Source: Emiliania huxleyi CCMP1516 (Eukaryota). From it: 45,140 nt of DNA. Under the pieces are notes generated by a model. The model had not been told where the DNA came from and did not search any database. It worked only from the letters and a program-made list of their open reading frames with translations. Of the stretch, positions 100 through 43,399 are shown one piece after another. A program made the position numbers and the translations under genes. Where the stretch lies: NCBI RefSeq assembly GCF_000372725.1, contig NW_005201298.1, positions 74,093 through 119,232 on the forward strand. The letters are read 5' to 3'. Numbering within the stretch: the stretch's first letter is position 1; each line of letters begins with the position of its first letter.

Positions 100-2728
100 G
101 GCCTCAACGCGCAGCTCTACTACCGCAACAAGGACCCGCGCGAGTGCGCCACCCTCGTCCGGACGTCGGGAAGCCAACCCGCTCCTCATTGCTCCTCATT
201 GGCTCCTGACTCATCACCGGCTTTAGGTACATCTCCCTCGTCCCGACGTCAGCACACACGGGCGAAGGGGTGGCCGACATCCTGATGAACCTCGTGGGCA
301 TGACGCAAAAGATGTTTGTGGACCGCATCATGTGGACGCCGATGGCGAAGTGCCGCGCCGACCTCCGCGACACGTCCGGGACACGTCCAGGACACGTCCC
401 GACAGGTGGACGCCGATGGTGCAGTGCACCGTACTCGAGGTCAAGGTGATCGAGGGGCTCGGCGCGACCGCCGACGTGACCCTCGCAAACGGGGCGCGGG
501 GCGGACACGCCCACGACACGTCCACGACATGTCCGAGACATGTCCTTAGGTGTGCCGCGGCTGCAGGCGGACACGTCCACGACACGTCCACGACACGTCC
601 GAGGCGTGTGCCCCCGTAGGTGATCCTCGCCAACGGCACTCTCAAGCGCGGGGACCGGATCGTCATGTGCGGCTTTGGCGGGCCGGTCGTCACGCGCGTG
701 CGCGACCTGCTCACGCCTCGCCCGCTGCGCGAGCTGCGCGTCAAGGCCGACTACCTCCACCACCAGGAGCCCGACCGCCCCTCCCGGCTGCTCCCCTCGG
801 CTCACCTCGGCTCCACCTTGGCTCCTCTCGGCCTCCCCTCGGCTCCACTTCGGCTCACCTCGGCTCACCTCGGCTCACCTCGGCTCACCTCGGCTCACCT
901 CGGCTCACCTCGGCTCACCTCGGCTCACCTCGGCTCACCTCGGCTCACCTCGGCTCACCTCGGCTCACCTCGGCTCACCTCGGCCACCAGGAGATCGACG
1001 GCGCCGCCGGCATCAAGATCTGCGCCAACCACCTCGAGAACGTCGTGGCGGGCTCCGCCTGCCTCGTCCCGTTCAAGGACGTGCCGTACGACCTCGAGGC
1101 GCTCAAGCAGGACGCGACGGGCTCGTCTTCTTTTCTTTCTTCCAGCCGTGTTTTCTTTTCTGTAGGTGCTCAAGGAGGACGCGATGGGCGAGCTTGTAGA
1201 CAAAGCCGGCCGAGGCACTGCGGCGGCACGGAGGTGCAGATCGGTACCAAGTCATTCCTAGGCGACCTCAACGAGCTGCGGCCAAGGCGGCGACACGTCC
1301 ACGGCACGTCCACGACATGTCCGAGACGTGTCGGATAGGCGACCTCAACAAGCTGGCTAAGGCGGCGTCCGAAGTGAACGGCGGGCTCGGCGTCTACGCG
1401 ATGGCGTCGACCCTCGGCTCGCTCGAGGCGCGGCTCGGGCTCCGTACCGCACCTCCAGAGTACCGAACCCAGTGTGGGTTCAGTCCCGTGGGCGGTGCGG
1501 TAGGCGCTCCTCGAGTTCCTCAAGACGTCAAAGGTCCCCCGCCCCNNNNNNNNNNNNNNNNNNNNNNNNNNNNNNNNNNNNNNNNNNNNNNNNNNNNNNN
1601 NNNNNNNNNNNNNNNNNNNNNNNNNNNNNNNNNNNNNNNNNNNNNTATCCCCGTCGCGGCCACATCTCCCCACATCTCCCCACATCTCCCCACATCTCCC
1701 CACATCTCCCCATCCCCCCCACACCTCTCCCCCGCACAGATCCCCGTCTCTACCACATCTCCCCACATCTCCCCACATCTCCCCATCCCCCCACACCTCT
1801 CCCCCGCACAGATCCCCGTCTCCGCGGTCAACATCGGGCCCATCCACAAGAAGGACGTCATCAAGGCGTCCATCATGCACGAGTTCAAGCCCGAGTACGC
1901 CACCATCCTCGCCTTCGACGTGCCGCTCACAAAGGAGGGCGAGCTGCAGGCCAAGGAGTCGCAGGTCAAGGTCTTCACCGCCGAGATCATCTACCACCTG
2001 TTCGACCAGTTCACAAAGTACATGGCGGACGTGCGGCTCGAGCAGCAGGCAAAGGCGGCGACCACCGCCGTCTACCCCGCCATCTGCAAGGTCTCGTCGC
2101 CCGACCTAGCACACTTCCTCGACACTTCCTCGACACTTCCTCGACACTTCCTCGACACTTCCTAGGTCTCGTCGCCCGACCACGTCTGGTGCCGCGGCGG
2201 GGGAGGGGACCCGATCTTGCTGGGGCTGGCGGTGCAGGAGGGGACCCTCAAGAAGGGCACGCCGCTCTGCGTCGAGCGGCGCGGGCAAAAGGACCCCGAG
2301 ACGGGGCTGCAGGCCTGCAAGACACCGGGCCACCAGAGAACACGAACGGCCCCCTACGCCTGCGCCAGCGCACTCCTCTTTTTTGGGCGGGTAGGCCTAC
2401 CTCGACATCGGGCGCGTCGTCTCGATGGAGCCCGAGAAGGGGAAGCAGGTGGACGTCCTCAAGGCGGGCAAGTCTGCCGCGGTCAAGATCGACGCCGTCA
2501 CGTCGATCCAGTACGGCCGGCAGTTCGACCACACCTACCCGCTGTACGCGCGCGTGACGCGCCGCTCCATCGACGCGATCAAGGAGCTCTTCAAGGAGGG
2601 CGGAAGAGCTGGTGTGAACGGCGTCTCTTCACACTCACTGCTGTGAACAGGAGTTCTTCAAGGAGGACCTCTCCAAGGACGACTGGGCGCTGCTTCTCAA
2701 GCTCAAGAAGCAGTACGGCGTCATCTGA
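100..2728 (+). CDS. eIF5B: Eukaryotic translation initiation factor 5B (IF2 homologue), 3' part; 5' end lies outside the window
   Basis: Manual exons 100-143, 227-331, 406-475, 620-766, 991-1098, 1166-1187, 1339-1427, 1504-1533, 1812-2090, 2166-2312, 2395-2583, 2651-2728 join in one frame. They give eIF5B hallmarks [86 protein letters not shown] and RRSIDAIK. Stop TGA at 2726-2728. Confidence 0.95.
797..984 (+). repeat. Intronic 10-bp tandem repeat (CTCGGCTCAC)n
   Basis: Visible array inside eIF5B intron 767-990; the same unit occurs on the - strand at ~11898-11935 in another intron. Confidence 0.95.
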
Positions 2729-10470: not shown

Positions 10471-11065
10471 CATCCTGTGCGCCGCAAAGGCCGATCGCGC
10501 CCGACGGTGGGGCGGCTCACCGCACACACACAGTTGCGAGGCCGAGCCCGCCGGGCGCGTAGAGCCGAGTGGCCGGGGGGGAGGCGGACCAGGGAAACCG
10601 CGCGCGGCAGTGCGAGGTGACACGATGTGGCGCGGGCACGGCGGGGGAGACGCAGACGGCGCTGTGCTAGGGGGGCGCGGAGCGCACATGGCACATTGTA
10701 GCGCAGAAAAGGGACTCGAAAAGGGCCTGATGAGTGTGGGAAAAGTGGAACAAGCTCCAGTCGCACCGTGCCCGTCTCCTACCCGACGGTGGCACTCTTC
10801 CACGTCTCGCTCACGCTGAGAAAAATTCTGAAACTAGAACACCCAACATACGCACGGTTCCGCCAAAAGAGTGGCAAGTGCCGCGCGCGCCCTCTCTCCG
10901 TTCGCGCTCTCTCGAGCGCACACATGGACATGCAAGATGCATGCCTGCCCCACCACACCATTATACAGTACACGGGGCTCGCGTTGAGATACACACATTT
11001 GCGGCGCGGCGGCGCTTTGCCCGCTTCGCGGCGCGCGCTCCTGCCCCCTCCGCCCGCCCGCCGCC

Positions 11066-13704
11066 TCACAGCTGCTTGACCATCGGCTGTGAGCTTCCAA
11101 ACGGGTCCCGCACCAGCGACCACTGCTCGGGCAGCAGCGCCGGCCGCGCCCCCTCGTCACCGCGCCGCCCCTTGCGACCGCGGCGAGCAAGCGGCGCGCC
11201 GGACGGCGGGGCGGCCTCGGCGTAGCCCCGCCTGCGCCAGAAGCCGACCGTGTCGTGGCCCGCGAGCACGACGACAGTGCGCACGCCGAGCTGCTCCGCG
11301 AGCCATGCCTCGGCGGCGCCCAGCAGCGCCGCGCCGATGCCGCGGCCAGCGTGGCTGCTCGCGACGGCGAGGAGCTGCACCTGTGCTCGCGGGTGCAGCT
11401 GTGAAGAGAGCGCCGTGCACAGTGGCGAGACAGCGAGGCGCCGCGCGCCTCGCAGAAGGAGGCGGCGGCGTGCGGGATGAGGGTGAGCGCCCCGACGATC
11501 GACTCCTTCCCTTCGAGGCGAGCGACAGCGGTGCGGGCGCCCTGGCCGTGCACGAGCAAGTGCAGAAAGTCGGCGCCGCGCCGCTTGCGCTGCGGGCTGA
11601 GCCCGGGGTGGGCCGGCGAGCAGGGAACGTCGGGAGGGAGGTCGACGTTGCACTCCGGCAGCCTGCGCCGGTAGAGCCGGAGCGCGTGCGCCTGCGAGAT
11701 CATCACTCGAGGTCAGGGGAGGTGAGGGGAGGTGAGGGGAGGTGAGGGGAGGTGAGGGGAGGTGAGGGGAGGTGAGGGGAGGTGAGGGGAGGTGAGGCGA
11801 GAGGAGGCGAGAGGAGGCGAGAGGAGGCGAGAGGAGGCGAGAGGAGGCGAGAGGAGGCGAGAGGAGGCGAGAGGAGGCGAGAGGAGCCGTGATGAAGCCG
11901 AGGTGAGCCGAGATGAGCCGAGGTGAGCCGAGATGCGCCTCTGCGGGCGAGAAGCTGCCAAAGGCGGCGGGCGGAGGCTGCAGCTCGAGGGTCACACCGG
12001 AGGAGGAGAGGTCGGGGCCGGCGGCGGAGGCGGCGAGGGGGACTGCCGCCGCCGTGGCGGCGGGCGGGGCGGGAGGGGCGACGGTGTACTCGACCGAGCG
12101 GCGGGTGGGGCGATGCCGCGAGCTGGCCGGAGGCGGCGGGGTGGGCTGCGGCGGCGGGGAGGAGGAAGCGGCAGCGGAAGCGGCGGCGGCGGCTGCGGCG
12201 GCGGCGGCGGAGGTGGAGGAAGTGGAGGCGGCGGCGGAGGCGGAGGCGGAGGAGGAGGAGGAGCGAGAGACGCGCGAGCTGAGCCGCGGCGCCGTGGCGG
12301 CGGCGCGAGCGCGCGTGGTCCGCTTGATCGGCGAGAGGGGCTTGGCCTGCGACGGCGGTGGCGGCTTGGGCGACGCGCCCGCGTTGCGCAGCTCAGCGAG
12401 GGCGGCGCGGCGCGAGGTCGAAAAGGAGGCGCCGAATGGGCCCTCGCCGGCGGAGGGACTGCTAGCCGCCGCCTCCTTTCGGGCGGGCGGCGGCGCGGCG
12501 CTGGCCCAAGACGGCGCGTTGCAGCCTGCCCATCCGTCGCCATCCCCGAGGCGGGCGGGTGGGGGCCCGCGTGTGGGTCGGACCTGGCTTGCCCGCCGCC
12601 CCGACCGACTCCCCCTCTGGCCGCCCGCTGCGGCGGCGCTGGCGGCAGCAGACGCGCTGGCGGCAGCAGACGCGCTGGCGGCAGCAGACGCGCTGGCGGC
12701 AGCAGACGCGCTGGCGGCAGCAGACGCGCTGGCGGCAGCAGACGCGCTGGCGGCCGCTGCCGGTGCGGCGGGGGCCGCTGCCGCGCGGCTGGCGGAAGCT
12801 GCTGCGGGCGGCTCGGTGGCCGTTTGCCGGCGAGCTGCCGCCTCGTCGCGCCGCCAAGAGGGCGGCAGGACAGAGGCGGACGAGGACGGCGGGGCGGACA
12901 AGGCGGCGGCGGTGGAGGGACGGTGGGCGAGGGCGGGCGCGTCGGCGACGGCCGGGCGGCCGGAGGTGATGGTGGCGAGGAGCCACTGCTCATCCGCCTA
13001 TGTGGGGTGTCGCGGCCGTGTCGTGGACGTGTCCCGCGCCGGTGGAGGCGAGAGACGGCCGCCTCGGCAAGGCGGGCGCGCGGCTGATTGCGGTGCACCT
13101 GCGGGAAGGCTCCGAGCGACGCTTCGGAGGAGGGCCCCGAGTCTGGCGTGGCCGGCTTGGGAGGGGGCGCGGGAGGGAGGAGAGGGGCGGAGGCCGAGGC
13201 CGAGGGAGTGGAGAAGAGAGTCGGGGAGGGAGAGAGATGGAGGGGAGGCGGGAGGGAGAGGGCATATACCTCGACGGCGCCCGCGTCGGAGATGGGGCGT
13301 CCGTACTGGACGCGCGCACCCGCCTCGCAGCAGAGGGAGCACAGGTCGGCGTGCGGCATCACCGTCGCGCCTCGCAGCGTCACGGTGAGCCCCGCAAGCG
13401 CGCGGCCGCCTCCGCTCAGCCGCGAGAGTTGCGCGCCCGGGACGTGCGGGAGCATCCCCTCCTCGAAGGGGGCGGGGTCGACGGCGACGCCGCGATTCCG
13501 CGCGCACGCGGCGACGTACTCCTCGCCGACGATCCAGTGCCCCCGCGCGAGCGCCCGCAGCAGCTTGAGCGTTCGCCGCACGGGACGGCCGCCCGCGACG
13601 GTGACGGGCTCTCCGCGGACGAGCGTGGCGCGGACGCGGTCGTGGATGTGGGCGAAGCAGCGCTGCGTTGCCTCGTCGTCGACGCCGGTGAGGGAGAAAG
13701 ACAT
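11066..13704 (-). CDS. Tandem-BRCT, Ala/Ser/Pro linker and GCN5-like GNAT acetyltransferase protein (multi-exon)
   Basis: N-terminus RRTLKLLRALARGHWIV (BRCT1) and LAGLTV...LCCEAGA...DEQWLLATI (BRCT2). C-terminus IVGALTL...FCE|VQLLAVASSHAGRGIGAALL...GFWRRRGY carries GNAT motifs A and B. Introns at roughly 13269-13099, 13060-12998, 11935-11692 and 11447-11381. Confidence 0.75.
11712..11935 (-). repeat. Compound intronic 10-bp repeats (CTCCCCTCAC, CTCCTCTCGC, CTCGGCTCAC)
   Basis: Three adjacent 10-mer arrays are directly visible. Confidence 0.95.
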
Positions 13705-14975: not shown

Positions 14976-15513
14976 ATGCCAGCCAGGATCGAGACTCGCC
15001 TGTCGCCGGACGGCGAGTGGCGCAAGAGCGGCGTTCTCGCCGGCGGCAGCGTCGTCGTCGGCCGAGCGCAGTTTGATGGTGCGCCGGACGCAAAGAGCAT
15101 CTCGCGCGAGCACTTTGATCTCAGGCTCTCTGCCGATGGTGCGCAAGTGACCGTGACGAGCATGAGCGGGAGCCCGAGCCACATCCACGACGCTGAGGAT
15201 GACCAGCCCACGCGGCTCGCCAAGGGCCAGGCCGTCCCGCTCGCATACGGCCAGCTCGTCTCACTCTCCAGGTCGCAGCGCTGCCAGCTCCGCGTTGTGC
15301 TCGATGGAGTGGCTGCGGCTCCGGCGGCTGCAGACTCGGCGGTCGCCGCCCCCGCGGCTGCGCGCCCACCCAGTGCGAGCGGGGCGGTGGTCGTGCACGA
15401 TCTGATCTCTGACGACGACGACGACGACGAGGTGCGGGTGACGGAGGCGCGAGCACCAGTCACACTCGACCTCACCGCAGCCGGGCCATCTGGCGGCGAG
15501 CGCGCAAAGCGGC

Positions 15514-15547
<34 letters not shown>

Positions 15548-17893
15548 CGGCGGCGGCCCCGCGCCTCGGCGAGACGCTGCGTCGGCGCTGGGGGCCGAAG
15601 AGGTGATCGACTTGGAGGCGGCCAACGGGGTCGGTCTCGGTGCGAGCGGCAAGCCGCTGCTGCCGGGCGAGCTCGAGGCGAGGCAGCAGCGCAGGCCGAG
15701 TTGGGTTCGGGGCCAAGAGGCTTCGACGAGCTTTCCCGGAGCCCCTCCCTTAGCTCTCCCGTAGGCGCCGCTCGGCTGGGACACGGCCTGGCTTCGCGAG
15801 TCCAAGACAACGCGTGCATGACATGTACATGTGCATGACATGTACATGTCCCTAGGCGCCGCTCGCCTCGCACGTCCCTCGAGGCATGTCCACGACACGT
15901 CCACGACACGCCCACGACACGTCCGGGACACGTCCACAGGCGCAGCTCGTGGACGCTACGCGCGTCTCGATCGACCGAAGAGACTCCCGAGGAGCAGCAC
16001 TACCGCCTCGCGGAGAGCGCGTTTTGCCGCGGCGGAGGGGTGGCGGCGCAGATCGCAAGCATCGACTACCACTTCCACCCCGCTCTCGAGGCCGCGCTGG
16101 CAGAACACAAACCCCACTCGCGGGCAGAGGACGCGGCACAGGACGGGGCACACGCGCCAGTCCGCAGACACGGGGAGGAGCGGTAGTGACGCTCACCCCC
16201 TCCCAGAGAGCCATTCTGCGAGAGGCCGCCGTGTTCGCCCCGCTTGGCGGGGAGTCTATAAGCGACGACGGCATCAGGCGCGCTGGCACGCCAAGAAGGC
16301 GGACTACGACGCGACGTACGGCCCTGGCAACCACACCATCCTCTTAATTAACTATGAAGTGACTCTTGAGTGACTCTTCATTCACTCTTAATGAATAGGC
16401 AACCACACCATCCTCTTAATTAACTATGAAGTGACTCTTGAGTGACTCTTAATTAATTCACTCTTAATGAATAGACAACCACACCATCCTCTTAATTAAC
16501 TATGAAGTGACTCTTGAGTGACTCTTCATTCACTCTTAATGAATAGGCAACCACACCATCCTCTCAATTAACTATGAAGTGACTCTTGAGTGACTCTTCA
16601 TTCGCTCTTAATGAATAGGCAACCACACCATCCTCTTAATTAACTATGAAGTGACTCTTGAGTGACTCTTCATTCACTCTTAATGAATAGGCAACCACAC
16701 CATCCTCTTAATTAACTATGAAGTGACTCTTGAGTGACTCTTCATTCACTCTTAATGAATAGGCAACCACACCATCCTCTTCGCCTTCCACGGCACGCGG
16801 CAGGCAAACGTGCGCCCGATCCTGGCGGAAGGATTCAAGCTCTCCAAGGTCGAACTATTACTTAACCAACCATTCATTTATTATTGGTTACCTATTAATC
16901 ATCTCCAAGGTCGGCTCAACGACCGACCCGGGCTTCTACGGCGCGGGAATCTACTTTTCGGAGCAGCTGCAGATGTCGATGGGATACAACAGCGGGAGCG
17001 ACTCATCCTAGAAGCAGAGCACGGATTCTTGCATCCCAGCCAGCGCTCGAGAGGACACGTATTCAACGGTATTCAGCCGATTCCACTGTGGTTCACTGTC
17101 GCCCCTCGTATTCACGCGGCGCTCTGAAGACGCCGCACGAGACCGTCCTCCCGCCCTCATGTCGGCGTACTCACCCTGTAGGAACGACGGCATGTTCCTC
17201 TGTAAGCTCCTCGTTGGCAAGCCGTTCCTCGCGCCGCTGCAGCAAGGGCGAGGGCTTCAGGCGGGCTATACGAGCCACGTGTCGGACGCGAGCGGCAGCG
17301 AGGTGATCATGTTTGACGAGGCGCGAATTAACATCTCAATCACTCGTTAATTAGTTAGTTCATATGTTAATTAGCTCACCATGTGTGACGAGGCGGCGAT
17401 GCTGCCGCTCTACTTCGTCTTTCTGCGCCCCCAGGGCGCCCACGGCCCTCTCGGCCACCATCATGGCCATCTTGGCCACGCTGCGGCGGCAGCGCACAAG
17501 GAGCCGCTCAAGGGTCTCGGCGGCGGCGGCGGCGGCGGCGGCGGCGTGTTGGGCGGCCTGGGCGGCTTGGGCGGCGCCATCGGTGGAGCGATGCACACGC
17601 TCGGCGGCGCATTTGGCCTGGGTGGCGCCTCATCGTCGTTGCCGGCCGCCGCCGTCGGGGCTGCCGCCGCTCTCGCCGGCGGCGGTGGCTGGGGCGCGGG
17701 CAACGTGCTGGGCGGCGGCAAGAGGCCGCGGGCGGACCACGACGCCGCGGTCGTGGCGCGGCTGCTGAGCGAGAGCCGTGGCGGCAAGGGCCGCCCGCGA
17801 GGGGCGGCCGGGCGCGCGGAGGGCGCGGAGGGCGCGGAGGAGGAGATGGTGCGCGAGGCGATGCGGCGGAGCTTGCTGCCGGGAGGGCGGTAG
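14976..17893 (+). CDS. FHA domain, PARP-type ADP-ribosyltransferase and C-terminal UIM-like protein (~600 aa)
   Basis: Exons 14976-15719, 15765-15811, 15940-16090, 16278-16326, 16763-16848, 16910-16995, 17182-17320, 17393-17893 are in frame. FHA: VVVGR...SISREH. ART: FAFHGT, ILAEGF, GFYGAGIYFS, MFLCKLLVG, SEVIMFD. UIM-like: EEEMVREAMRRSL. Confidence 0.85.
16327..16762 (+). repeat. Six tandem 72-bp units forming one intron of the PARP gene
   Basis: Units start at 16327, 16399, 16475, 16547, 16619 and 16691. Each begins (G/A)CAACCACACCATCCTC, the start of the next exon, and ends AATGAATAG. Confidence 0.95.
16996..17181 (+). mobile_element. Introner-like element, copy 1 (PARP gene intron)
   Basis: Shares CCTAGAAGC, CCCA.CCAGCGCTCGAGAGG, CGTA.TCACGCGG and CCGTCCTCCCGCCCTCATG blocks with introns at 19250-19505, 22768-22982 and 40663-40840. 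Confidence 0.7.
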
Positions 17894-18451: not shown

Positions 18452-21400
18452 TCAGCCCCTGTAGCGCGCAGCGGCCGCCGCCGCCACGGCGGCCGCGGCC
18501 GCGGCGGCGGCGGCGAGCGCAAGAGCGCCCGCCGACGGCGCCTGACTCCACGCCGCCACCGGGCCCTTGTCGGCGGCGCGCTTGGCCTTGTCCGAGAGGA
18601 TGGCGGCGGCGGCGCTGTCACGAGACGCCTTTGCGTTGCGTCGGCCGGCGCGCGATCACATGAGTATATGAGTAGCAGTCCCAGACTAGCAATACTCCCC
18701 AGACGCCTTTGCGTTGCCCGGCCGGCGCGCGAGCTTGAGGGCGCGCGCGTCGAGATGCGCCTCCACGTCGGCGATAGTGACGCCGGCGGCGACGCAGCGC
18801 ACGAGCGCGAAGAAGAGGAGGTCGGCGGCCTACCATTAATGAACAACTCTCATTAATTAATATTAACTGATATACCCGAGATGACCCGCGACTACCCGAG
18901 GTCGTCCTCAGTTTAAGGAAGAGGGGGTGGGCGGCCTCAGAGGCGATGTGGAGGTAATCTCGGGTGATCTCGGGTAATCTCAGGTAATCTCGGGTAATCT
19001 CGGGTAGTCTCGGGTAATCTCGGGGATTTCGGGGAGGAGGTCGGCGGCCTCAGAGGCGATGTCGTCTGGCTCCTCTGCCTCTGCCAGCTCCTGCGCCTAG
19101 ATGATCCGAGATGCCCCGAGATGCCCCGAGATGCCCCGAGATGACCCTCCGCCTCTGCCAGCTCCCGCGAACCTCTTCCACAAGCTTGGAGCGGAGGAGG
19201 GTCGAGTCGTCAAAGAGCCGCTTGGTGTACGAGCCGGCCGGCGCCGAGCCTGCGGTGTGAGTGCGCCGGCATGAGGGCGGGAGGACGGTGTCGGGCAGAG
19301 TACTTGTGGCACCGCGTGAGTACGAGGGAGGCGAGTACAATGTGCACAGCGGAGTGCGGCCGAGTACGGCGGAGTCCGTGTCGTCTCGAGCGCTACCGGG
19401 AGCACAAGAACACGGCTCCGCTCCTCCCCGCTGCCCCTGCTCACGAGATATGGGGAGATACGGGGGAGATACGGGGAGAGATTCCGCTTCTAGGGGCCGC
19501 CGCGCCGCGCCGCGACTGCAGCGTCTCCTGCAGCGCGCGTAGGCCGCTCGGGAAGCCCCAGCACGTCAGCGTGCCTGCAGGGGCAGCACGAGACACTACT
19601 GACTGGCAGTGGCCCCACCGCATAGCATGACCCCCCCCCCCCCCCAGCAATGTCAGCGTGCCTCGGTGGCAAAAGGATGGCGGCGAGCCGTACTGGCGGA
19701 CAGTGAAGCGGAGTGCGTCGCCGTCGGAGTCGACGGCCACACGGCAGAGCCGCTGCCACGCGCCTACTCCCATCGACAGTCTCTTCAACCTCTGAACCTT
19801 CACTCGCGCGGCAGAGCCGCTGCCACGCGCCTACTCCCATCGACAGTCTCTTCAGCCTCTGAACCTTCACTCGCGCGGCAGAGTCGCTGCCACGCGCCTA
19901 CTCCCATCGACAGTCTCTTCAACCTCTGAACCTTCACTCGCGCGGCAGAGTCGCTGCCACGCGCCTACTCCCATCGACAGTCTCTTCAACCTCTGAACCT
20001 TCACTCGCGCGGCAGAGTCGCTGCCACGCGCCTACTCCCATCGACAGTCTCTTCAACCTCTGAACCTTCACTCGCGCGGCAGAGTCGCTGCCACGCGCCT
20101 ACTCCCATCGACAGTCTCTTCAACCTCTGAACCTTCACTCGCGCGGCTGAGCCGCTGCCACGCGCCTACTCCCATCGACAGTCTCTTCAACCTCTGAACC
20201 TTCACTCGCGCGGCAGAGTCGCTGCCACGCGCCTACTCCCATCGACAGTCTCTTCAACCTCTGAACCTTCACTCGCGCGGCAGAGTCGCTGCCACGCGCC
20301 TACTCCCATCGACAGTCTCTTCAACCTCTGAACCTTCACTCGCGCGGCAGAGTCGCTGCCACGCGCCTACTCCCATCGACAGTCTCTTCAACCTCTGAAC
20401 CTTCACTCGCGCGGCAGAGTCGCTGCCACGCGCCTACTCCCATCGACAGTCTCTTCAACCTCTGAACCTTCACTCGCGCGGCAGAGTCGCTGCCACGCGC
20501 CTACTCCCATCGACAGTCTCTTCAACCTCTGAACCTTCACTCGCGCGGCAGAGTCGCTGCCACGCGCCTACTCCCATCGACAGTCTCTTCAACCTCTGAA
20601 CCTTCACTCGCGCGGCAGAGTCGCTGCCACGCGCCTACTCCCATCGACAGTCTCTTCAACCTCTGAACCTTCACTCGCGCGGCAGAGTCGCTGCCACGCG
20701 CCTACTCCCATCGACAGTCTCTTCAACCTCTGAACCTTCACTCGCGCGGCAGAGTCGCTGCCACGCGCCTACTCCCATCGACAGTCTCTTCAACCTCTGA
20801 ACCTTCACTCGCGCGGCAGAGTCGCTGCCACGCGCCTACTCCCATCGACAGTCTCTTCAACCTCTGAACCTTCACTCGCGCGGCAGAGTCGCTGCCACGC
20901 GCCTACTCCCATCGACAGTCTCTTCAACCTCTGAACCTTCACTCGCGCGGCAGAGTCGCTGCCACGCGCCTACTCCCATCGACAGTCTCTTCAACCTCTG
21001 AACCTTCACTCGCGCGGCAGAGTCGCTGCCACGCGCCTACTCCCATCGACAGTCTCTTCAACCTCTGAACCTTCACTCGCGCGGCAGAGTCGCTGCCACG
21101 CGCCTACTCCCATCGACAGTCTCTTCAGCCTCTGAACCTTCACTCGCGCGGCAGAGTCGCTGCCACGCGCCTACTCCCATCGACAGTCTCTTCAGCCTCT
21201 GAACCTTCACTCGCGCGGCAGAGCCGCTGCCACGCGCCTACTCCCATCGACAGTCTCTTCAGCCTCTGAACCCTCACTCGCGCGGCAGAGTCGCTGCCAC
21301 GCGCCTACTCCCATCGACAGTCTCTTCAACCTCTGAACCTTCACTCGCGCGGCAGAGCCGCTGCCACGCGCCTACTCCCATCGACAGTCTCTTCAACCTC

Positions 21401-23813
21401 TGAACCTTCACTCGCGCGGCAGAGTCGCTGCCACGCGCCTACTCCCATCGACAGTCTCTTCAACCTCTGAACCTTCACTCGCGCGGCAGAGTCGCTGCCA
21501 CGCGCCTACTCCCATCGACAGTCTCTTCAACCTCTGAACCTTCACTCGCGCGGCTGAGCCGCTGCCACGCGCCTACTCCCATCGACAGTCTCTTCAACCT
21601 CTGAACCTTCACTCGCGCGGCAGAGTCGCTGCCACGCGCCTACTCCCATCGACAGTCTCTTCAACCTCTGAACCTTCACTCGCGCGGCAGAGCCGCTGCC
21701 ACGCGCCTACTCCCATCGACAGTCTCTTCAACCTCTGAACCTTCACTCGCGCGGCAGAGCCGCTGCCACGCGCCTACTCCCATCGACAGTCTCTTCAACC
21801 TCTGAACCTTCACTCGCGCGGCAGAGTCGCTGCCACGCGCCTACTCCCATCGACAGTCTCTTCAGCCTCTGAACCTTCACTCGCGCGGCAGAGTCGCTGC
21901 CACGCGCCTACTCCCATCGACAGTCTCTTCAGCCTCTGAACCTTCACTCGCGCGGCAGAGTCGCTGCCACGCGCCTACTCCCATCGACAGTCTCTTCAAC
22001 CTCTGAACCTTCACTCGCGCGGCAGAGCCGCTGCCACGCGCGCCAGACGAGTCGCCCTTCCGCCAGAGAGAGCGGCGAGAGCGGGACCAGTAGACGCCGC
22101 GGCCGGAGCGGAGCGCGGCGCAGACGGACTCCGCCGTCGAGTAGACGAGGCCTGAAGAATGAAGAATGCGGACCCCCTCTTGGTAACGAGCTCATTCATG
22201 GCTCGGGCCCCGTCGGCGAGGAGGCGAGGCCGAGGGCGACGCCGCCCTCCTCCTCCACCACCTATGGTGGTTGCACTCTTCCGCGTCGCAACCGCCTGTG
22301 ACATCCGTACCGCCGCCCTCCTCCTCCACCGTTGAGAGCAAGCCATCCGGCCGGTCGGACCGCACCGCCGCGGCCAGCGCCTGTGGACATGGCTGGGACA
22401 TGTCGTGGACATGTCACGGACATGTCGTGGACGTATCGCGGACATGTCGTGGGCGTGTCGTGGACATGTCGTGGGCGTGTCGTGGACATGCACATGTCGT
22501 GGACATGTCGCGGACGTGTCGCGGACGTGTCGTGCACATGTCGCGGGTGTGTCGTGGACCTGGCCGAGGGCATCTCGTGAGAGTGTGTGTGGTCTCCTCG
22601 TTGGAGCACCTATCCCCACACCGAACGTCTCGCGCATGCTCCCACTCCTACCCCTCGTGCCACTGCCCCTCTCCCCTTCTCGCCATTGATACGCGCCTGT
22701 CCCGCGTCGATCAGCTCTTCTCCGCCCGCAGGCGCCTCCGCAACGTCCTCCGCCCGCCGCCAGAAGCCTACGTTGTGATGTGAAAACTGCGTTGAGACGA
22801 CGCCGACGGGAGGGCGTGAAGACGGCAACTTGTGGCAGCGTACTCAGAGCACCGCGTGAGTACGGGTGGGGACGAAAGCAGCGAACACATCCGCATCCAG
22901 CGGCATACAGCCGAGTGCGTCTCCTCTCGAGTGCTGGTTGGGATGCATGAACACGTATTCCGCTTCTAGGGCCAGAGTCCGCCACTAACCGACGGCACCG
23001 GTGCGGCCGCGGGCGTCGGCGCCGCCACCCGCTCCGCCCGCCTCGGGAGGGGGCCGAGCGATGCCGGGGCCGCGAGGCCGAGGTTGAGGGCGTGGAGCTC
23101 GGCGAGCCTAACCAGTTGGGCTCGCACTGGTCGAACTTAATTAAATTCGTCCCCAAAGTCCGAGGGCGAGGGCGTGCACGCTCGGCGCGCCGGGCCAGGG
23201 AGGGGGAGAGCGACGCTCCGGAGACCACGACCAGCAGCCGGTCCGTCGCCGCGAGGCTGGCCGACACCCGCTTCAGCAGCGCCGCGTCCGCCGCCGCGTC
23301 TGGAAGGAGGAGAAGGACGCCGGCGGCGGCGCCGACGGTGTGGGGCCGCTCGCACTCGCGGCAACCGGAGCCGGTCTTGGCGGCGAGAGACTCGAGTGCG
23401 AGAAGGAGCTGCTCAGACGTCGTCTCGGCTGCAGGAGAGAGGACGACGAGCAGGCGCTCAGCGGGCAGCGCCGCGTCCTTGGCCGCCTGGCGCACTGCCG
23501 CGCACAGCTCCGCCGGAGGCGTCGCGGGGTCCGGAGTGAGCAGCGCGTACAGCGCTCCGGCATGAAGCCACTCCCGCGCCTTGGCCGCCTCGTCCAGCCG
23601 GAAGGGGCCGACCGCGCAGCCCGCGCTGCGCAAGAGCGCGACGCGGGCAGCCGACGGCGGCGAAGCGAGCTCGGCTTCGCTCAGCCAGCAGACGAGGCAG
23701 CTGCCGAGGCCGAGGCGGCGGAGCACCTCGTCGTCGCTCTCGCCGGCCGCCTCGCCCTTGATGAGAGGCGAGAGGGACTTCGTGCGGAGGTCAACCACTG
23801 GCCAGAGCACCAT
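18452..23813 (-). CDS. hisIE: Bifunctional phosphoribosyl-AMP cyclohydrolase / phosphoribosyl-ATP pyrophosphatase with a His4-like N-terminal extension (~534 aa)
   Basis: Exons 23813-23191, 23107-22983, 22767-22697, 22380-22330, 22261-22231, 22151-22044, 19763-19662, 19574-19506, 19249-19173, 19096-19049, 18829-18707, 18628-18452 are in frame. Motifs: SDRPDGLLSTVV, LGLVYS, YWSRSRRSLWRKGDSSG, DSDGDAL, FCHRGTLTCW, GSYTKRLF, KLVEEAQEL, EAADLLFF. Confidence 0.92.
19250..19505 (-). mobile_element. Introner-like element, copy 2 (hisIE intron), with an inserted 10-mer repeat
   Basis: - strand: CCTAGAAGCGGAA...AGCGCTCGAGACGACAC...CTCGTACTCACGCGGTGC...CCGTCCTCCCGCCCTCATGCCGGCGCACTCAC..CAG. Confidence 0.7.
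19764..22043 (-). repeat. 34 tandem 67-bp units forming a 2280-nt intron of hisIE
   Basis: Unit on the - strand: GCGCGTGGCAGCG(A/G)CTCTGCC-GCGCGAGTGAAGGTTCAGAGGTTGAAGAGACTGTCGATGGGAGTAG. 2280 = 34 x 67 + 2, and the units are nearly identical. Confidence 0.95.
22768..22982 (-). mobile_element. Introner-like element, copy 3 (hisIE intron)
   Basis: - strand: CCTAGAAGCGGAATACG..TGCATCCCAACCAGCACTCGAGAGG...CGTACTCACGCGGTGCTCTGA...CCGTCTTCACGCCCTC. Confidence 0.7.
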
Positions 23814-31850: not shown

Positions 31851-32548
31851 GTAGTGGAGATTGGGGCCGTGCGTGTACAGCTCGCGCGAGCGGAAAGCCT
31901 TCGCGAAAGGAAAAAGAATTATCCGTGAATCACCTAGTGGGCCATAGTGGGCCACTGCCACCATTCTTTTTCTGCTCATAACAAATTGCCCTGCCCAACA
32001 TATTTTAGTTACTGGGTCCTAATGGCTATGTGGGAGAAGTTTGGTCTTTGTTTCATGGGGGGATCTGGATATATTCACGGCTAAAGTTGGTGCCGGCACG
32101 GCTCCCCTAGCCGGTCTCTCGGGGCAGGCCGGGAAGAGCCTCCAGGCCTTCTGTGGAGCTTAGGTAGGGTCCCCAGCCAGCCTCAGCTGCAAGGCAGTCT
32201 CCAGGGGCCATGTAGCATGCCTGACATGACAGTGCAACCCACCCGGACACGGGTAGCGCACCAGAGAGGGCCTGTCCTCGTCGTCGAAGCCGGCGGCGGC
32301 GCGTGGCGCGAAGCGGAAGTCATCGGCACCGCCGAATCCGGAGCCTAAGAAGGGGAGGAAGAAGTGAGCGAGGAGTGCAGTCTGTGTTTTGCAAGAATGG
32401 TGACACGCGTAGACACAAGTACTAGTACGACCTGAGTACGCTCCAGGCTCCAGCCACACAGCCAGGCCAGTGCTTTGCAATGCCGCACACGCCAAAAGTG
32501 AAAACGAGCAGTGCTACGTGCGGAGTGTGGGATTACTCACGACTGGGC

Positions 32549-33000
32549 GTGTCGCGACCGCCGCCGCGAGGCTCGTGGCGATGGAGGCGCCGGCGCCAGC
32601 ATGCGCCGCCTCCCTCAACGCCCGAAACTCGGTCACAGCCGGGGGAGCGACAGCGGCAGAGATGCGGGCCGCTGGCGACCTCACACGGCGCCAAGCGCCG
32701 TAGAGGTAGCCCCGAGAGACGCAGCTGGGTGTGTCGCGACCGCCGCCGCGAGGCTCGTGGCGATGGAGGCGCCGGCGCCAGCATGCGTCGCCTCCCTCAA
32801 CGCCCGAAACTCGGTCACAGCCAGCGGAGCGACGGCGGCAGAGATGCGGGCCGCCGGCGACCTCACACGGCGTCGCACGCCGTAGAAATGACCCCGAGAG
32901 ACGCCGCAAGGTGCGTCGCGACCGCCGCCGCGAGGCTCGTGGCGATGGAGGCGCCAGCGGCAGCATGCGCCGCCTCCCTCAACGCGCGACACTCGGTCGA
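32549..33000. repeat. ~182-bp tandem repeat, about 2.5 units
   Basis: GTCGCGACCGCCGCCGCGAGGCTCGTGGCGATGGAGGCGCC recurs at ~32551, ~32733 and ~32915. Confidence 0.9.
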
Positions 33001-33847
33001 GGCTGGCTCGAACTGCTCGAGGCCAGCTGCCTGACTTGTATTGACAGCGAGTGTGTCGCCACTCGCTCCTGATCACACGTTGAGGGGGGCGTGGACATGT
33101 TAGCCCTCGGCAGCTGCGATGCGCACACACCTGTCGCACGGATCCAGCGGTGGTGGCGATATGCTGCTCGGCGAGCCAAAGAGAGCGTGCCACCGAGAGC
33201 GTGCCACCGAGAGCGTGCCACCTAGAGCGGAGTGCGCCGCCCTCCGCAGCGGGAGTCGGTTGCGGGTGGTGCAGCGGCGCCGTGATAGAACAACAGGCGC
33301 CGGCTCGGCACGCTGAGTGCACACGCGACGCGTCGCGCGTGCACGCACTGCTCGTGCAGCGCCAAACAGCGTCCGCCAGCGCAGAGAAAGGAGCCCGTGC
33401 CGACTCGTGCACGCCTGCGACAGCTCGAGCGGCTCAGCGCGAGTGCTGGCTCACATCCGGTCGGCTCACAGTGCTTGGGCAGCCAGGCTCACCGTCGGCG
33501 AGAGCAGCTGCGAGCGACACCACGTCGAGCCAAGGCGACGCTTTCTTCCGTGGCCGCCGCGGCTCGTTTCCGCCACGCGGTGGGGTGCGGCGGAGGCCGA
33601 GGCGTGCGCCAGCCGCGCTCGAGACCAGCAGGCGGCCTGGGAGGGCGCTCACACGCCGCGACGACCTCGGCGAAGCGAGGCGTCGCGCCAGGTCATTCAC
33701 GGTTATGCATAGACTAGTGTGGGACCTGCGGCGGTACCCGTCTCTGTTGTTCGGGCAGTGAGAGACGCAGGATCTGCACGCCAAAGTGGGCCACTCATTT
33801 GCATTTTGGTTTTGGGTTGTCGGAGATCATCCATCAGCACTCATGTC

Positions 33848-34040
33848 TCATCAGTCAGTCACGTCAGTCAAAGCAGTTCGTGGCACTCATCAGTCAGTCA
33901 CGTCAGTCAAAGCAGTTCGTGGCACTCATCAGTCAGTCACGTCAGTCAAAGCAGTTCGTGGCACTCATCAGTCAGTCACGTCAGTCAAAGCAGCCGTGGC
34001 ACTCATCAGTCAGTCACGTCAGTCAAAGCAGTCGTGGCAC
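33848..34040. repeat. 39-bp tandem repeat, about 5 units
   Basis: CTCATCAGTCAGTCACGTCAGTCAAAGCAGTTCGTGGCA is repeated. Confidence 0.92.
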
Positions 34041-39454: not shown

Positions 39455-41128
39455 TCACACGCTACACGTGCGGTGGGAGGGGGACCCAGTGTGGTCCAGA
39501 GTCCGCCGCGCGGTGCGTGCTGCGCGATAGGTCGTCGACGGTGAAGTCGACTCTCGCGCCAAGCACTCCGACTCTCGGGCCCCCCACTCCAACTCCGCTT
39601 CCAGCCGGTCGACGAGATCTCCAAAGTGCTGTCGCGGGAAGATGAGCCCGCGGCGCTCTGCAATCAGCTCGATGAGCTGCGGGCCGGCGAGCGGCGGCGA
39701 GGCCTGCTGCGGTACGTGCTGCGGCCCCTTTCCGCGCGAGAGGTGTCTGCCCGCGGCGACGCTCGGGTCGAGCGCGGCGATGACGGCGAGGCCATACAGG
39801 CCGAGCACGACGTCGACGAGGAGGGCCTTGTCCGCCTCGTGCGTAAAGTGGCCGTTGAACACGTTGACCGACTCCTCGATCCACCGCCGGCGGGACGAGA
39901 GCTGGGAGAGGGAGGAGTCAAAGACGTACATCTGCGCCGACCCGTTGATGGCCATGAACGCCCACTGCTCGAGTCGGCACCACCCGCGCTGCAAGTACGT
40001 GTCCGCGTCGACCTTGCAGGGCGGGCGCGAGTCCTGGTGGAGCGCCTCGGGAGCGCAGGCGAGGAAGTAGTGCGAGCAGGCGGCGTAGAGGGCGATCGAG
40101 CCGATCGCGAGCCGCTTGGTCGTCGTGTTCTCCTGTGGTACTGCGGCGGGGCGGCGAGGGCGAGAGGCGGNNNNNNNNNNNNNNNNNNNNNNNNNNNNNN
40201 NNNNNNNNNNNNNNNNNNNNNNNNNNNNNNNNNNNNNNNNNNNNNNNNNNNNNNNNNNNNNNNNNNNNNNNNNNNNNNNNNNNNNNNNNNNNNNNNNNNN
40301 NNNNNNNNNNNNNNNNNNNNNNNNNNNNNNNNNNNNNNNNNNNNNNNNNNNNNNNNNNNNNNNNNNNNNNNNNNNNNNNNNNNNNNNNNNNNNNNNNNNN
40401 NNNNNNNNNNNNNNNGGGGGGAGGGGGGCGGTAGCGCACTCGAGTGGTAGTCGAGCCAGATATGGAGCGACTCGGGGTCGAGGCCTTGCCTCGCGCAAAG
40501 CGCCTCGGCCGCCTCGAGGATGGCTGGGTAGTGCTGCGCCTTGGGGTCCGGGTGGTGGCGAGAGAGCCACTGGTGCGAGACAAACATGACGGGGAGGCCG
40601 GCTGCGAAAGCCACCGCCGACTCGACGGTGTCGCAGAAGCGGAGGGCACCAGCGTCGCGCGCCTTCGTCATGCACACGCCAGCATCAGGGTGGGAATGCG
40701 GTTTCGTGCGCGCATTCAAGCATCGTGTGATACAAATACAGCCGAATGCAGCCGAATACGGCCGAATGCAGCGGAGTGTGCGCCCTCTCGAGCGCTGGTT
40801 GGGAGACAAGAAGACGTGTTCCGCTTCTAGGACCGCGCGCCTCCTCGTACGAGACAAGGCGGCCCTGCTCGCGTAGCTTCGAGAGCGGCATCACCGCGAG
40901 CGGAAACTCGAGCGTCGTGACGCCCGTCACCGCCTGGCGGATGCGTCTGTCCTTCTCGGCGCTCTCTCGCTCAACCTAAGGTAAGGCAAGGCCAGGTCAA
41001 CTTCTCCGCACACACGAGGTGGTGGGGCAAGGGCCAAGCAGTCCCTCGCGGCCCCACGTCTAGAAGACAGGAGCCCCGGCATCAAAGTGCAAGGCCCGGT
41101 GCGCGTGGGTGAGCGGTGTGTGTGTGTG

Positions 41129-41186
<58 letters not shown>

Positions 41187-41274
41187 TGTGTGTGTGTGTG
41201 TGTGTGAGTGTGTGTGTGAGTGTGTGTGTGAGTGTGTGCGTGAGTGTGTGTGTGTGTGTGTGTGAGTGTGTGAG

Positions 41275-41338
<64 letters not shown>

Positions 41339-42270
41339 TGAGTGAGTGAGGGGGGGGGGTCGCGCTCGACCTCCGCGAGGCGCAGCAACCGACGGAGATA
41401 CACGCACCGCACGAAGGTCAGCAGGACGACAATGACACCGAGGGCGCAGACACTCGTGCCCGCGATCGCTGGCCACTGCTGCGGCACGCACCTGGGGAGA
41501 TGTGTCAGGAGATGTGGGGAGATATATCAGGAGATATGGGGAGATGTATCAGGAGATATGGGGAGATATGGGGAGATGTGGCCACTGCTGCGGCACGCAC
41601 CTCCCGTTGCCCGCGCTCGGCTTGTGGTACGCGAAACGGCAAGGCTGGCACTCGGCAGCCGGCAAGCGCCTGTCATGGGTAGGCGGGCCATCCTAGATAA
41701 CTCGATCACTGTTGACTTTGTGAGGGCGGCCGGCACGGCCGCACCACCCCTCTCACTGTACAAGGTGCGAGAGTGAGAGCGCCACGCAGAGAGGGTATCT
41801 CCGGACCTCACATAAGGCCTCCTCGAGCTGGCTAGAGGAGGTCGGTGGGAGGGAGAGGTGGAGAAAGAGGGACTTGGAGGTGTCCGTGTGTGTTTGCTTG
41901 CACGCGCCTCAGCGCTTCAAAGTCGACCTCGAAGCCGGACGCATCGTCCGCCCGGAAGGTCGGCTCGAGGTGCGCGCCGCAGCCGCACCCGCGACTTGGC
42001 AGCGGCACGAGCGGCGCCGGACACCGCGCGATGATCGTGCGCGTGTCAACGAGCGCGCCGTCGAGCAGCAGCAGGAGCGCGTGCGCGCCGACGAGCGGCG
42101 CGAGCACGGTTGCCTTGTACCGGCCGTCCGAGGCATAGACGACCGCCATGTCGTCGTGTGCACCGGAGGCGCTGTCGCGGACGAGGACGGTGAACGCCTG
42201 TGTTGCGTGTCCGACGGTCACTGTGCTATCGTGCGGCTTCGGGCCCGGGGCTGTGCTTTTGTGTGAACGC
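39455..42270 (-). CDS. Single-pass receptor-like protein: filamin/Ig-like segment, Cys repeat, TM helix and HET-like cytoplasmic domain (partial, gapped)
   Basis: In order: DGRYKATVLAPLVGAHALLLLLDG (filamin-like); ECQPCRFAYHKPSAGNGR|CVP (ephrin-receptor-like Cys repeat); VCALGVIVVLLTFV-RCVYLRR (TM plus stop-transfer); FVSHQW..HPDP..IWLDYHS..PQ..YLQRGWCRLEQW (HET-like). Confidence 0.7.
40663..40840 (-). mobile_element. Introner-like element, copy 4 (receptor-like gene intron); repeated at ~42371-42486
   Basis: - strand: CCTAGAAGCGGAACACG..TCCCAACCAGCGCTCGAGAGGG..CACTCCGCTGCATTCGGCCG; the 3' half is more diverged. Confidence 0.65.
41116..41348. repeat. (GT)n/(CA)n microsatellite in intron 40976-41370; second copy at 42761-42880
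   Basis: Directly visible. Confidence 0.97.
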
Positions 42271-42370
42271 NNNNNNNNNNNNNNNNNNNNNNNNNNNNNN
42301 NNNNNNNNNNNNNNNNNNNNNNNNNNNNNNNNNNNNNNNNNNNNNNNNNNNNNNNNNNNNNNNNNNNNNN

Positions 42371-43399
<1,029 letters not shown>

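What the first reader, a model, noticed from the sequence alone, without database searches (positions are those of the whole stretch)
16327..16762. Second whole-intron array: 6 x 72-bp AT-rich units in the PARP gene
Seen: the design matches the hisIE array but the sequence is unrelated. Each unit is a 17-nt exon copy (GCAACCACACCATCCTC) plus AT-rich filler ending AATAG. Unit 3 has lost its GC donor (ACAACC) and unit 2 has a 4-nt insertion. The array lies just upstream of the catalytic HGT codons. Two independent cases within 4 kb suggest a general process.
Basis: partly seen in the sequence, partly recalled or inferred. Interest (0 to 1): 0.75.

Follow-up and report, generated by a model that had tools for sequence, protein, structure and literature searches.

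The report
Whole intron copied six times
In a marine alga's PARP gene, one small intron sits as six head-to-tail copies, and an RNA assembly joins the exons straight across it; the intron likely arose with a 20-base duplication of its insertion site and likely multiplied by DNA slippage between those repeats, and most neighbouring introns carry similar boundary repeats.

Summary
The array is real: six units (72, 76, 72, 72, 72, 72 nt) at 16327-16762, forming a GC-AG intron of a PARP gene with His-Tyr-Glu motifs. An RNA contig joins the flanking exons with exactly 436 nt skipped. Three other runs and one metagenome contig hold at least two units, so it is not an assembly artefact; the count of six is unverified. 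An orthologous gene lacks the intron.

The 'exon copy' is not special to arrays. It is a 20-nt boundary direct repeat, and 20 of 24 modelled introns in three genes of the window have one. The two arrays have the two longest exact repeats (22 and 20 nt). Best reading: a repair-born intron amplified by slippage or unequal crossover. Unit 3 has no donor, so strict unit-by-unit splicing would stall.

Closest known: amphioxus 'mirage' minisatellites and human dual-splice-site repeats; here the unit is the whole intron. Unchecked scan notes report similar stacks in two other genomes. The more interesting lead: donor dinucleotides equal the next exon's first two bases in 22 of 24 introns, which could explain GC/GA donors. 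No genome was held, so no genome-wide test.

The parts
16327..16762 (+). Intron 3 of the PARP gene: six head-to-tail whole-intron units, GC donor at 16327, AG acceptor at 16762
   Evidence: only 1 of 21 registers gives G[TC]..AG; RNA joint skips 436
16326..16345 (+). First copy of the 20-nt boundary direct repeat (last exon G plus 19-nt copy of the next exon's start); supplies the GC donor
   Evidence: one search reports 20 letters fitting either side of the joint
16346..16397 (+). 52-nt AT-rich filler of unit 1, a patchwork of short direct and inverted copies of itself and of the repeat's end
   Evidence: 6-mer self-coverage of repeat plus filler 0.51 vs 0.09 in shuffles (p=0.002), 0.74 vs 0.18 with inverted copies (p=0.0005)
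16399..16474 (+). Unit 2, 76 nt, with a templated 4-nt expansion
16475..16546 (+). Unit 3, donor G>A (junction AG|AC); cannot be removed on its own
16547..16618 (+). Unit 4, two substitutions (16565, 16604)
16619..16762 (+). Units 5 and 6, identical to unit 1
16762..16781 (+). Last copy of the 20-nt repeat: G of the acceptor AG plus the true start of exon 4
16278..16326 (+). Exon 3 (49 nt), upstream of the array
   Evidence: joint skipping 187 in X5; orthologue alignment
16763..16848 (+). Exon 4 with the HGT motif (16789-16797)
   Evidence: Pfam PARP E=0.0033 for this piece, below the curated cut-off
14976..17893 (+). PARP gene model, 576 aa, weak N-terminal FHA-like hit; six introns: 15695-15939, 16091-16277, 16327-16762, 16849-16909, 16996-17181 (GA-AG), 17321-17392
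   Evidence: open frame; four introns joined in run contigs; orthologue L002 Pfam PARP E=4e-12; FHA E=0.074 only
19764..22043 (-). Sister case: 34 x 67-nt whole-intron array in hisIE, with a 22-nt boundary repeat
   Evidence: the flanking exons match PRA-CH profile positions 2-36 and 39-66

Best explanation
This is a spliced GC-AG intron made of six tandem copies of one 72-nt intron that likely arose by a DNA-repair-type insertion with a 20-nt target duplication and likely multiplied by slippage or unequal crossover between those repeats. Step 1 (inferred): a staggered break in the exon is repaired, duplicating 20 nt and adding 52 nt of locally templated AT-rich filler. The duplicated exon start supplies the GC donor; the filler's last A plus the repeat's first G supply the AG. 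Step 2 (inferred): misalignment of the two repeats gives two units. After that, whole-unit register shifts change the copy number and homogenise the units, as in any minisatellite. Step 3 (shown at contig level for an allele of unknown unit number): the exons are joined with nothing left between them, so the protein is unchanged. For this six-unit allele, splicing is predicted to run in one step or in multi-unit steps, because unit 3 lacks a donor. Any retained unit would stop translation after residue 321, before the catalytic His. The array is most likely a tolerated by-product, not a regulatory device.
For: Splicing: an X11 (poly-A metatranscriptome) contig skips 436, 61 and 186 nt. Only one register gives GC..AG. 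The spliced model is an open 576-aa frame that aligns without a gap at the site to orthologue L002; 20 of 22 homologous proteins read straight through the site. Real and multi-copy elsewhere: X1 and X2 show contigs ending at 16355, a 92-nt contig and contigs starting at 16752. X5 shows 16345 / 92 nt / 16762. A k=31 simulation gives these breakpoints only with at least two units (X5 pattern: intron-free form plus a form with two or more units), never with zero or one. L001 begins inside a second unit. Gain: genomic L002 lacks all six window introns and has its own GT-AG intron with a background repeat score (15 vs cross mean 14.8). General anatomy: 20 of 24 introns score above the 95th percentile of cross pairs; mean 5' match 10.2/18 vs 5.2, permutation p=5e-5. 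The two arrays rank first and second of 24 for exact repeat length (1 in 276 if random). Homogenisation hint: X2's single unit contig carries two substitutions and X5's carries one, at the full depth of that contig. The filler is self-templated and shows no high-copy depth, unlike the 186-nt intron beside it.
Against: The RNA joint comes from an environmental run whose allele's unit number is unknown, so splicing of the six-unit allele itself is not shown. X5's library type is not on record, so its intron-free form could be a DNA allele. Copy-number variation rests only on depth ratios (X2 102 vs 43/37; X1 17 vs 9.5/5.7), which the tool says are no copy number. Eighteen of the 24 intron boundaries (eIF5B, hisIE) were placed by eye, several from a repeat scan, which inflates the repeat statistic; they are checked only by open frames and exon order on profiles. 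Among the six independently fixed PARP introns, 4 pass and 2 score at background. The rank of the arrays is confounded by recency and by gene conversion keeping the copy perfect. Junctions falling on splice sites fit an RNA route equally well. The repair enzyme is not identified, and the loss of all six introns in the L002 lineage is not formally excluded.
Confidence: 0.7

Rival explanations
1. RNA route: the excised intron (lariat or circle) reverse-splices at its own AG|GC junction, or is reverse-transcribed in rolling-circle fashion, and the multimer recombines back into the gene.
For: The units are exactly one intron long and each internal junction regenerates AG|G. The 34 near-identical hisIE units resemble a rolling-circle product.
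Against: The 20-nt repeat already forces the junctions onto splice sites under DNA slippage. The arrays are the two introns with the longest exact repeats, which the RNA route does not predict. L001 shows a ~92-nt internal duplication in the neighbouring intron that ignores splice sites. No reverse transcriptase link was found or sought.
Confidence: 0.1
2. The first unit was a short non-autonomous transposon (Introner-like) with a long target-site duplication, later amplified in tandem.
For: The donor is co-opted from the duplicated target, as in some Introner families (PMC9860276, passages). A dispersed ~180-nt intron family does exist in this genome. The motif TTAATTA occurs in four different introns and nowhere else in the window (18 matches vs 0.24 expected).
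Against: Filler depth is at most about 3x the flanks, against 70-200x for pieces of the 186-nt intron. There are no terminal inverted repeats, and the fold z-score is -0.72. The repeat is 20 nt against the 3-9 bp described. No exact match for an 18-nt filler word in viral contigs.
Confidence: 0.1
3. The array is a selected regulatory device: unit number and the dead donor of unit 3 tune the share of stop-containing transcripts and so the PARP dose.
For: Any retained unit stops translation before the HGT motif. A toy model with uniform random donor-acceptor pairing ends correctly in only 81% of paths. At least two units are present in 4 of 4 other intron-bearing sources examined (X1, X2, X5, L001).
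Against: The same design occurs in a housekeeping hisIE gene with unrelated sequence. Intron retention is reported as pervasive in E. huxleyi (89% of 535 introns; PMC4028052, passages). The unit-3 change was seen in none of the four other sources, though such contigs drop rare variants.
Confidence: 0.06
4. Assembly or cloning artefact, or a dead gene whose transcript ends in the array.
For: The window has gaps and locally duplicated stretches, and two extra bases near 16257 against all four runs. The exact number six and the unit-3 change are seen only here.
Against: At least two units in three runs and in L001. Unit-specific variants. A spliced RNA contig. An intact frame with H, Y and E motifs.
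Confidence: 0.04

Closest known systems
Amphioxus 'mirage' minisatellites (Adh3, globins BflGb6 and BflGb9; PMC3087553, passages read)
   Same: Tandem units of 10-160 bp span an exon-intron boundary and carry splice signals. They show concerted evolution, do not block normal splicing, and are attributed to unequal crossover.
   Different: Mirages duplicate one boundary of a larger intron. Here the unit is the complete intron with its own donor and acceptor, and no unique intron sequence remains. Copy-number polymorphism is shown for mirages but only hinted here.
Dual-specific splice sites in tandem repeats: human UBC, and VCX3A with an extra copy of intron 3 as an insertion polymorphism (PMC10809524, abstract and Discussion read)
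   Same: Each unit junction can act as both acceptor and donor, so expansions can be spliced out.
   Different: There the repeats are coding and in frame, with AGGT sites. Here the unit is mostly stop-containing filler with AG|GC sites.
Intron gain by double-strand-break repair with filler DNA and flanking direct repeats (Daphnia as cited, Drosophila cases; PMC2809761 and PMC3296678, passages read)
   Same: A new intron of sequence with no known source elsewhere, flanked by a direct repeat that overlaps the splice sites.
   Different: In Drosophila the repeats are 8-18 bp, rare, and not enriched (19 of 77 gained vs 26 of 100 conserved introns). Here 20 of 24 introns have them, up to 22 nt exact, and two have been amplified.
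Identical repeated intron boundaries (IRIB) of dinoflagellates (PMC5032977, passages read)
   Same: A boundary sequence is present twice in DNA and once in mRNA, which makes the splice position ambiguous.
   Different: IRIBs are 2-11 bp and mostly exon-end copies. Here they are longer, mostly exon-start copies, in a different lineage.
Introner elements (PMC9860276 and PMC7789003, passages read)
   Same: A splice site is co-opted from a duplicated target site.
   Different: Introners are dispersed families with 3-9 bp duplications, often with terminal inverted repeats. This unit looks single-locus, is tandem, and has a 20-nt duplication.

Membership tests
Spliceosomal intron (GC-AG) | G[TC] donor and AG acceptor | tested here: met
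   1 of 21 registers is GC..AG
Spliceosomal intron (GC-AG) | Absent from RNA; removal restores the frame and homology | tested here: met
   X11 joint skips 436 (allele's unit number unknown)
Spliceosomal intron (GC-AG) | Branch point and lariat | not testable with these tools
   Only assembled contigs were available
Mirage minisatellite | Tandem unit spans an exon-intron boundary and carries splice signals | tested here: met
Mirage minisatellite | Copy number varies between alleles | tested here: inconclusive
   At least 2 units in X1, X2, X5 and L001; depth ratios of about 2-3 against 6 here, but depth is no copy number
Mirage minisatellite | Duplicates one boundary of a larger intron | tested here: not met
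   The unit is the whole intron, with no unique remainder
Recursive splicing through zero-length exons | Internal AG|G[TC] junctions | tested here: met
   4 of 5 internal junctions are AG|GC and one is AG|AC
Recursive splicing through zero-length exons | Can be completed one unit at a time | tested here: not met
   Single-unit and 5'-ratchet paths all stall at unit 3 in this allele, if that base is real
Recursive splicing through zero-length exons | Splicing intermediates in RNA | not testable with these tools
   No raw or long reads were offered
Introner element | Dispersed copies at other loci | tested here: not met
   Filler depth about 3x flanks or less in DNA-like runs X1 and X2 at 90% likeness (106 loose-end rows not shown); no genome-wide search was possible
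Introner element | 3-9 bp target duplication and/or terminal inverted repeats | tested here: not met
   20-nt repeat; the only inverted matches are an 8-nt palindrome and internal 6-mers
Intron gain by tandem duplication of an AG|G[TC] site (Rogers model; as cited) | Both splice sites come from the duplicated segment | tested here: not met
   The upstream exon ends TG (CG in X1 and X5), and the acceptor's A comes from the filler. The neighbouring 61-nt intron does fit.
Break-repair (filler DNA) intron gain | Flanking direct repeat; intron absent in an orthologue | tested here: met
Break-repair (filler DNA) intron gain | Presence/absence polymorphism or a traced filler source | tested here: inconclusive
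   X5's intron-free form may be RNA or DNA; the filler is self-templated; no viral match
PARP catalytic domain (PF00644) | Domain match and H-Y-E motifs | tested here: met
   Orthologue 46.4 bits vs cut-off 26.7; motifs HGT, GIYFS and SEV are aligned in the window model. Assigning them to the triad rests on recalled knowledge.

The most novel reading that the evidence does not exclude
This alga makes most of its introns by one ongoing mutational process that duplicates 10-22 nt of exon and inserts filler, so the splice donor is simply whatever the next exon begins with. Donor equals exon start in 22 of 24 introns, including all three GA donors. That would explain the GC/GA donor excess published for E. 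huxleyi without invoking GC pressure on old donors. The same repeats then drive whole-intron minisatellites (6x, 34x), stacks of unlike introns at one site with zero-length exons, and precise intron loss: a complete birth, amplification and loss cycle visible within populations.
Probability: 0.45. Interest if true: 0.75.

Novelty: new variant of a known kind. Interest (0 to 1): 0.52.

Why it matters
How new spliceosomal introns arise is a long-standing question with few caught cases. Here one gene has six introns absent from an orthologue, most nearby introns keep a long duplication signature, and two have become minisatellites of whole introns. If this holds genome-wide, it gives thousands of datable intron births, a mutational explanation for non-canonical GC/GA donors, and a natural test of one-step against recursive splicing, using the donor-less unit 3. 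The array alone is a modest oddity with close precedents.

Tried and rejected
RNA coverage of the gene's first exon and first intron was not obtained; reads were laid only on 16060-17470. Four of the 19 runs listed were laid; the other shares are not used as evidence.

A homologue search with exon 1 found nothing (weak evidence). Three eIF5B look-ups (and one protein) and two hisIE pieces were in the wrong reading frame and are void; searches repeated the family scans in the right frame. In one search, 4 of 8 eIF5B exons hit the aIF-2 profiles, in order; the other 4 did not. The intron set leaves out the eIF5B intron that spans an N gap and the minus-strand gene at about 11000-13700, whose boundaries I could not check.

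A viral origin of the filler was not supported: no exact 18-nt match. Organelle DNA could not be searched. Special RNA structure was rejected: z = -0.72 for one unit, -1.88 for two, -1.23 for the array. Successive independent insertions were rejected for this array (95% unit identity), though they fit the unlike stacks. The hisIE unit shows no self-templating (p=1.0), so the filler mechanism is not uniform. The 39-nt x5 repeat at 33847 does not show an AG|G unit design by eye.

Scan look-ups by place, by sequence and by the organism's name returned nothing. Ten paper searches showed no description of boundary repeats or whole-intron arrays in E. huxleyi. The species' 2013 genome paper is not held, and no supplements were read; they, or the Introner survey's SI tables, may bear on this.

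Full report
OBSERVATION. The array is as described. Six units start at 16327, 16399, 16475, 16547, 16619 and 16691, 436 nt in all and 37% GC, followed by a seventh copy of the opening motif at 16763 that is the real exon. TRF gives period 72, 95% matches. Unit 2 is 76 nt, unit 3 has G>A at its first base, unit 4 has two substitutions, and units 1, 5 and 6 are identical. The exon copy is 19 nt from the donor, 20 with the preceding G.

ORGANISM. No call names it; run organisms are coded. About 65% GC, GC and GA donors, 10-11-nt intronic micro-repeats and marine holders resemble the haptophyte Emiliania (Gephyrocapsa) huxleyi. The micro-repeat resemblance is recalled. GC donors at 56-65% and verified GA donors are reported in PMC4028052 (passages). 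The name is an inference.

THE GENE. Removing six introns gives an open 576-aa frame. It aligns over residues 225-453 to an orthologous gene on metagenome contig L002, whose piece scores PF00644 PARP at E=4e-12. L002 is genomic: it has one GT-AG intron of its own, and it is uninterrupted at all six window intron positions. Of 22 homologous proteins, 20 read straight through the array site, one is frameshifted there and one is distant; whether their contigs are DNA or RNA is unknown. The HGT codons lie 26 nt after the array. Retaining any unit ends the protein at 321 aa, before HGT.

SPLICING. A contig of poly-A metatranscriptome run X11 joins 16325 to 16762 (436 skipped, 20 letters ambiguous), then skips 61 and 186 nt. 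It retains the 187-nt intron, which X5 shows skipped. Only 1 of the 21 possible registers is G[TC]..AG, namely 16327-16762. The unit number of the allele behind X11 is unknown.

NOT AN ARTEFACT. In X1 and X2 the contigs end at 16355, include a 92-nt piece and restart at 16752; in X5 the breaks are 16345, 92 nt and 16762. Simulated k=31 graphs give the first pattern only with two or more units, and the second only with an intron-free form plus a form with two or more units; zero or one unit gives no break or a 112-nt piece. L001 begins within a second unit identical to the consensus. The 92-nt piece has about 2-3 times the flank depth in X1 and X2, a weak hint of fewer than six units. It carries run-specific substitutions at full depth in X2 (two) and X5 (one), a weak hint of homogenisation.

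CONTEXT. A scan for introns that open with the next exon's start found many in the window. I modelled 24 introns in three genes: 10 in eIF5B, 6 in PARP and 8 in hisIE. The frames tested are open (the two 5'-most hisIE introns were not in the frame test), and exon order agrees with profiles for hisIE and for 4 of 8 eIF5B exons. Intron starts match the next exon at 10.2 of 18 positions against 5.2 for cross pairs (permutation p=5e-5). With gaps allowed, 20 of 24 exceed the 95th percentile of cross pairs, while L002's own intron is at background. All 24 downstream exons begin with G, and the donor dinucleotide equals the exon's first two bases in 22 of 24 (14 GC, 5 GT, 3 GA; p=1e-5). Eighteen boundaries were set by eye and partly from the repeat scan. 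In the six PARP introns fixed by run joints or the orthologue, 4 pass the repeat test and 6 match the dinucleotide. The hisIE array has 34 units of 67 nt, and the two arrays have the longest exact repeats of all 24 (22 and 20 nt). Three other introns look like stacks of unlike intron-sized segments, each opened by a copy of the same exon start (a fourth internal hit there has uneven segments and was not counted).

MECHANISM. Shown: the direct repeat, the tandem structure, the exon-exon joint, the absence in an orthologue. Inferred: birth by repair with target duplication. The filler is a patchwork of its own short direct and inverted copies (p between 0.0005 and 0.002 for 6- and 7-mers, 0.02-0.04 for 5-mers), as locally templated end-joining produces (recalled). 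It is not a high-copy element, unlike parts of the 186-nt intron (70-200x flank depth). Inferred: amplification by misalignment of the 20-nt repeats, whose reciprocal product would be precise intron loss. Four of five internal junctions are AG|GC and could serve as both acceptor and donor, but unit 3 cannot be removed alone: single-unit and 5'-ratchet paths never finish, and random pairing finishes in 81% (toy model). This depends on one base seen only in this assembly.

COMPARISON. It works like amphioxus mirage minisatellites (PMC3087553, passages) and human dual-specific-site repeats, including an extra whole copy of VCX3A intron 3 (PMC10809524, abstract and Discussion). It differs from mirages in that the unit is the entire intron. 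Its birth signature matches break-repair intron gain (PMC2809761 and PMC3296678, passages) and resembles dinoflagellate IRIBs (PMC5032977, passages), with longer repeats. It fails the Introner tests (PMC9860276 and PMC7789003, passages). PMC4028052 attributes the GC donors to genomic GC content; copying from exon starts is an alternative. A recent G. huxleyi genome preprint mentions introns once, in a legend (10.1101/2024.05.26.595999, passages). Ten searches showed no account of this anatomy in E. huxleyi, but the original genome paper is not held and no supplements were read. Unchecked scan notes describe whole-intron stacks in two other genomes and splice-site minisatellites in sharks.

VERDICT. 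Real, spliced, and a new variant of a known kind. The array alone is modest. The window-wide boundary-duplication pattern it exposes is the more valuable lead and needs a genome-wide test. Interest 0.52.

Noticed in passing
window 15695-15939 (+), 1188-1338 (+), 19048-18830 (-): Stacks of unlike intron-sized segments (70+91+84, 74+77, 113+106 nt) separated by AG|GC, each opened by a copy of the same exon start: candidate successive intron gains at one site with zero-length exons.
   Followed up: partly
window 16996-17181 (+), 19505-19250 (-), ~22975-22790 (-), ~40830-40690 (-), ~42477-42400 (-): A dispersed ~180-nt sequence family, at least twice a whole intron (one GA-AG, joined in RNA). Parts reach 70-200x flank depth in DNA-like runs: a candidate Introner-like family.
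   Followed up: partly
L001, intron matching window 16996-17181: This allele has a ~92-nt diverged internal tandem duplication inside the intron.
   Followed up: no
window 16344-16715, 17347-17373, 18853-18860, 23137-23144: TTAATTA occurs only inside four small AT-rich introns (18 matches, 0.24 expected): possibly a shared signature of filler synthesis or a splicing signal.
   Followed up: partly
window 767-990, 2584-2650, 16996-17181: Three GA-AG introns, each followed by an exon that starts GA.
   Followed up: partly
window 22043-19764 (-): hisIE array of 34 units. The first unit has 2 extra bases at the donor. The first and last units share the real exon's variant, while 26 of 34 units carry another.
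   Followed up: partly
window ~16257: Two extra bases relative to all four runs laid, inside intron 2: a private allele or an assembly error.
   Followed up: no
window 33847-34040 and 32543-32998: Other minisatellites (39 nt x5, 182 nt x2.5) without an evident whole-intron design.
   Followed up: no
window 40700-41780 and 42370-43400; 1660-1811: Near-duplicate stretches beside N gaps, probably haplotypes or assembly duplications.
   Followed up: no
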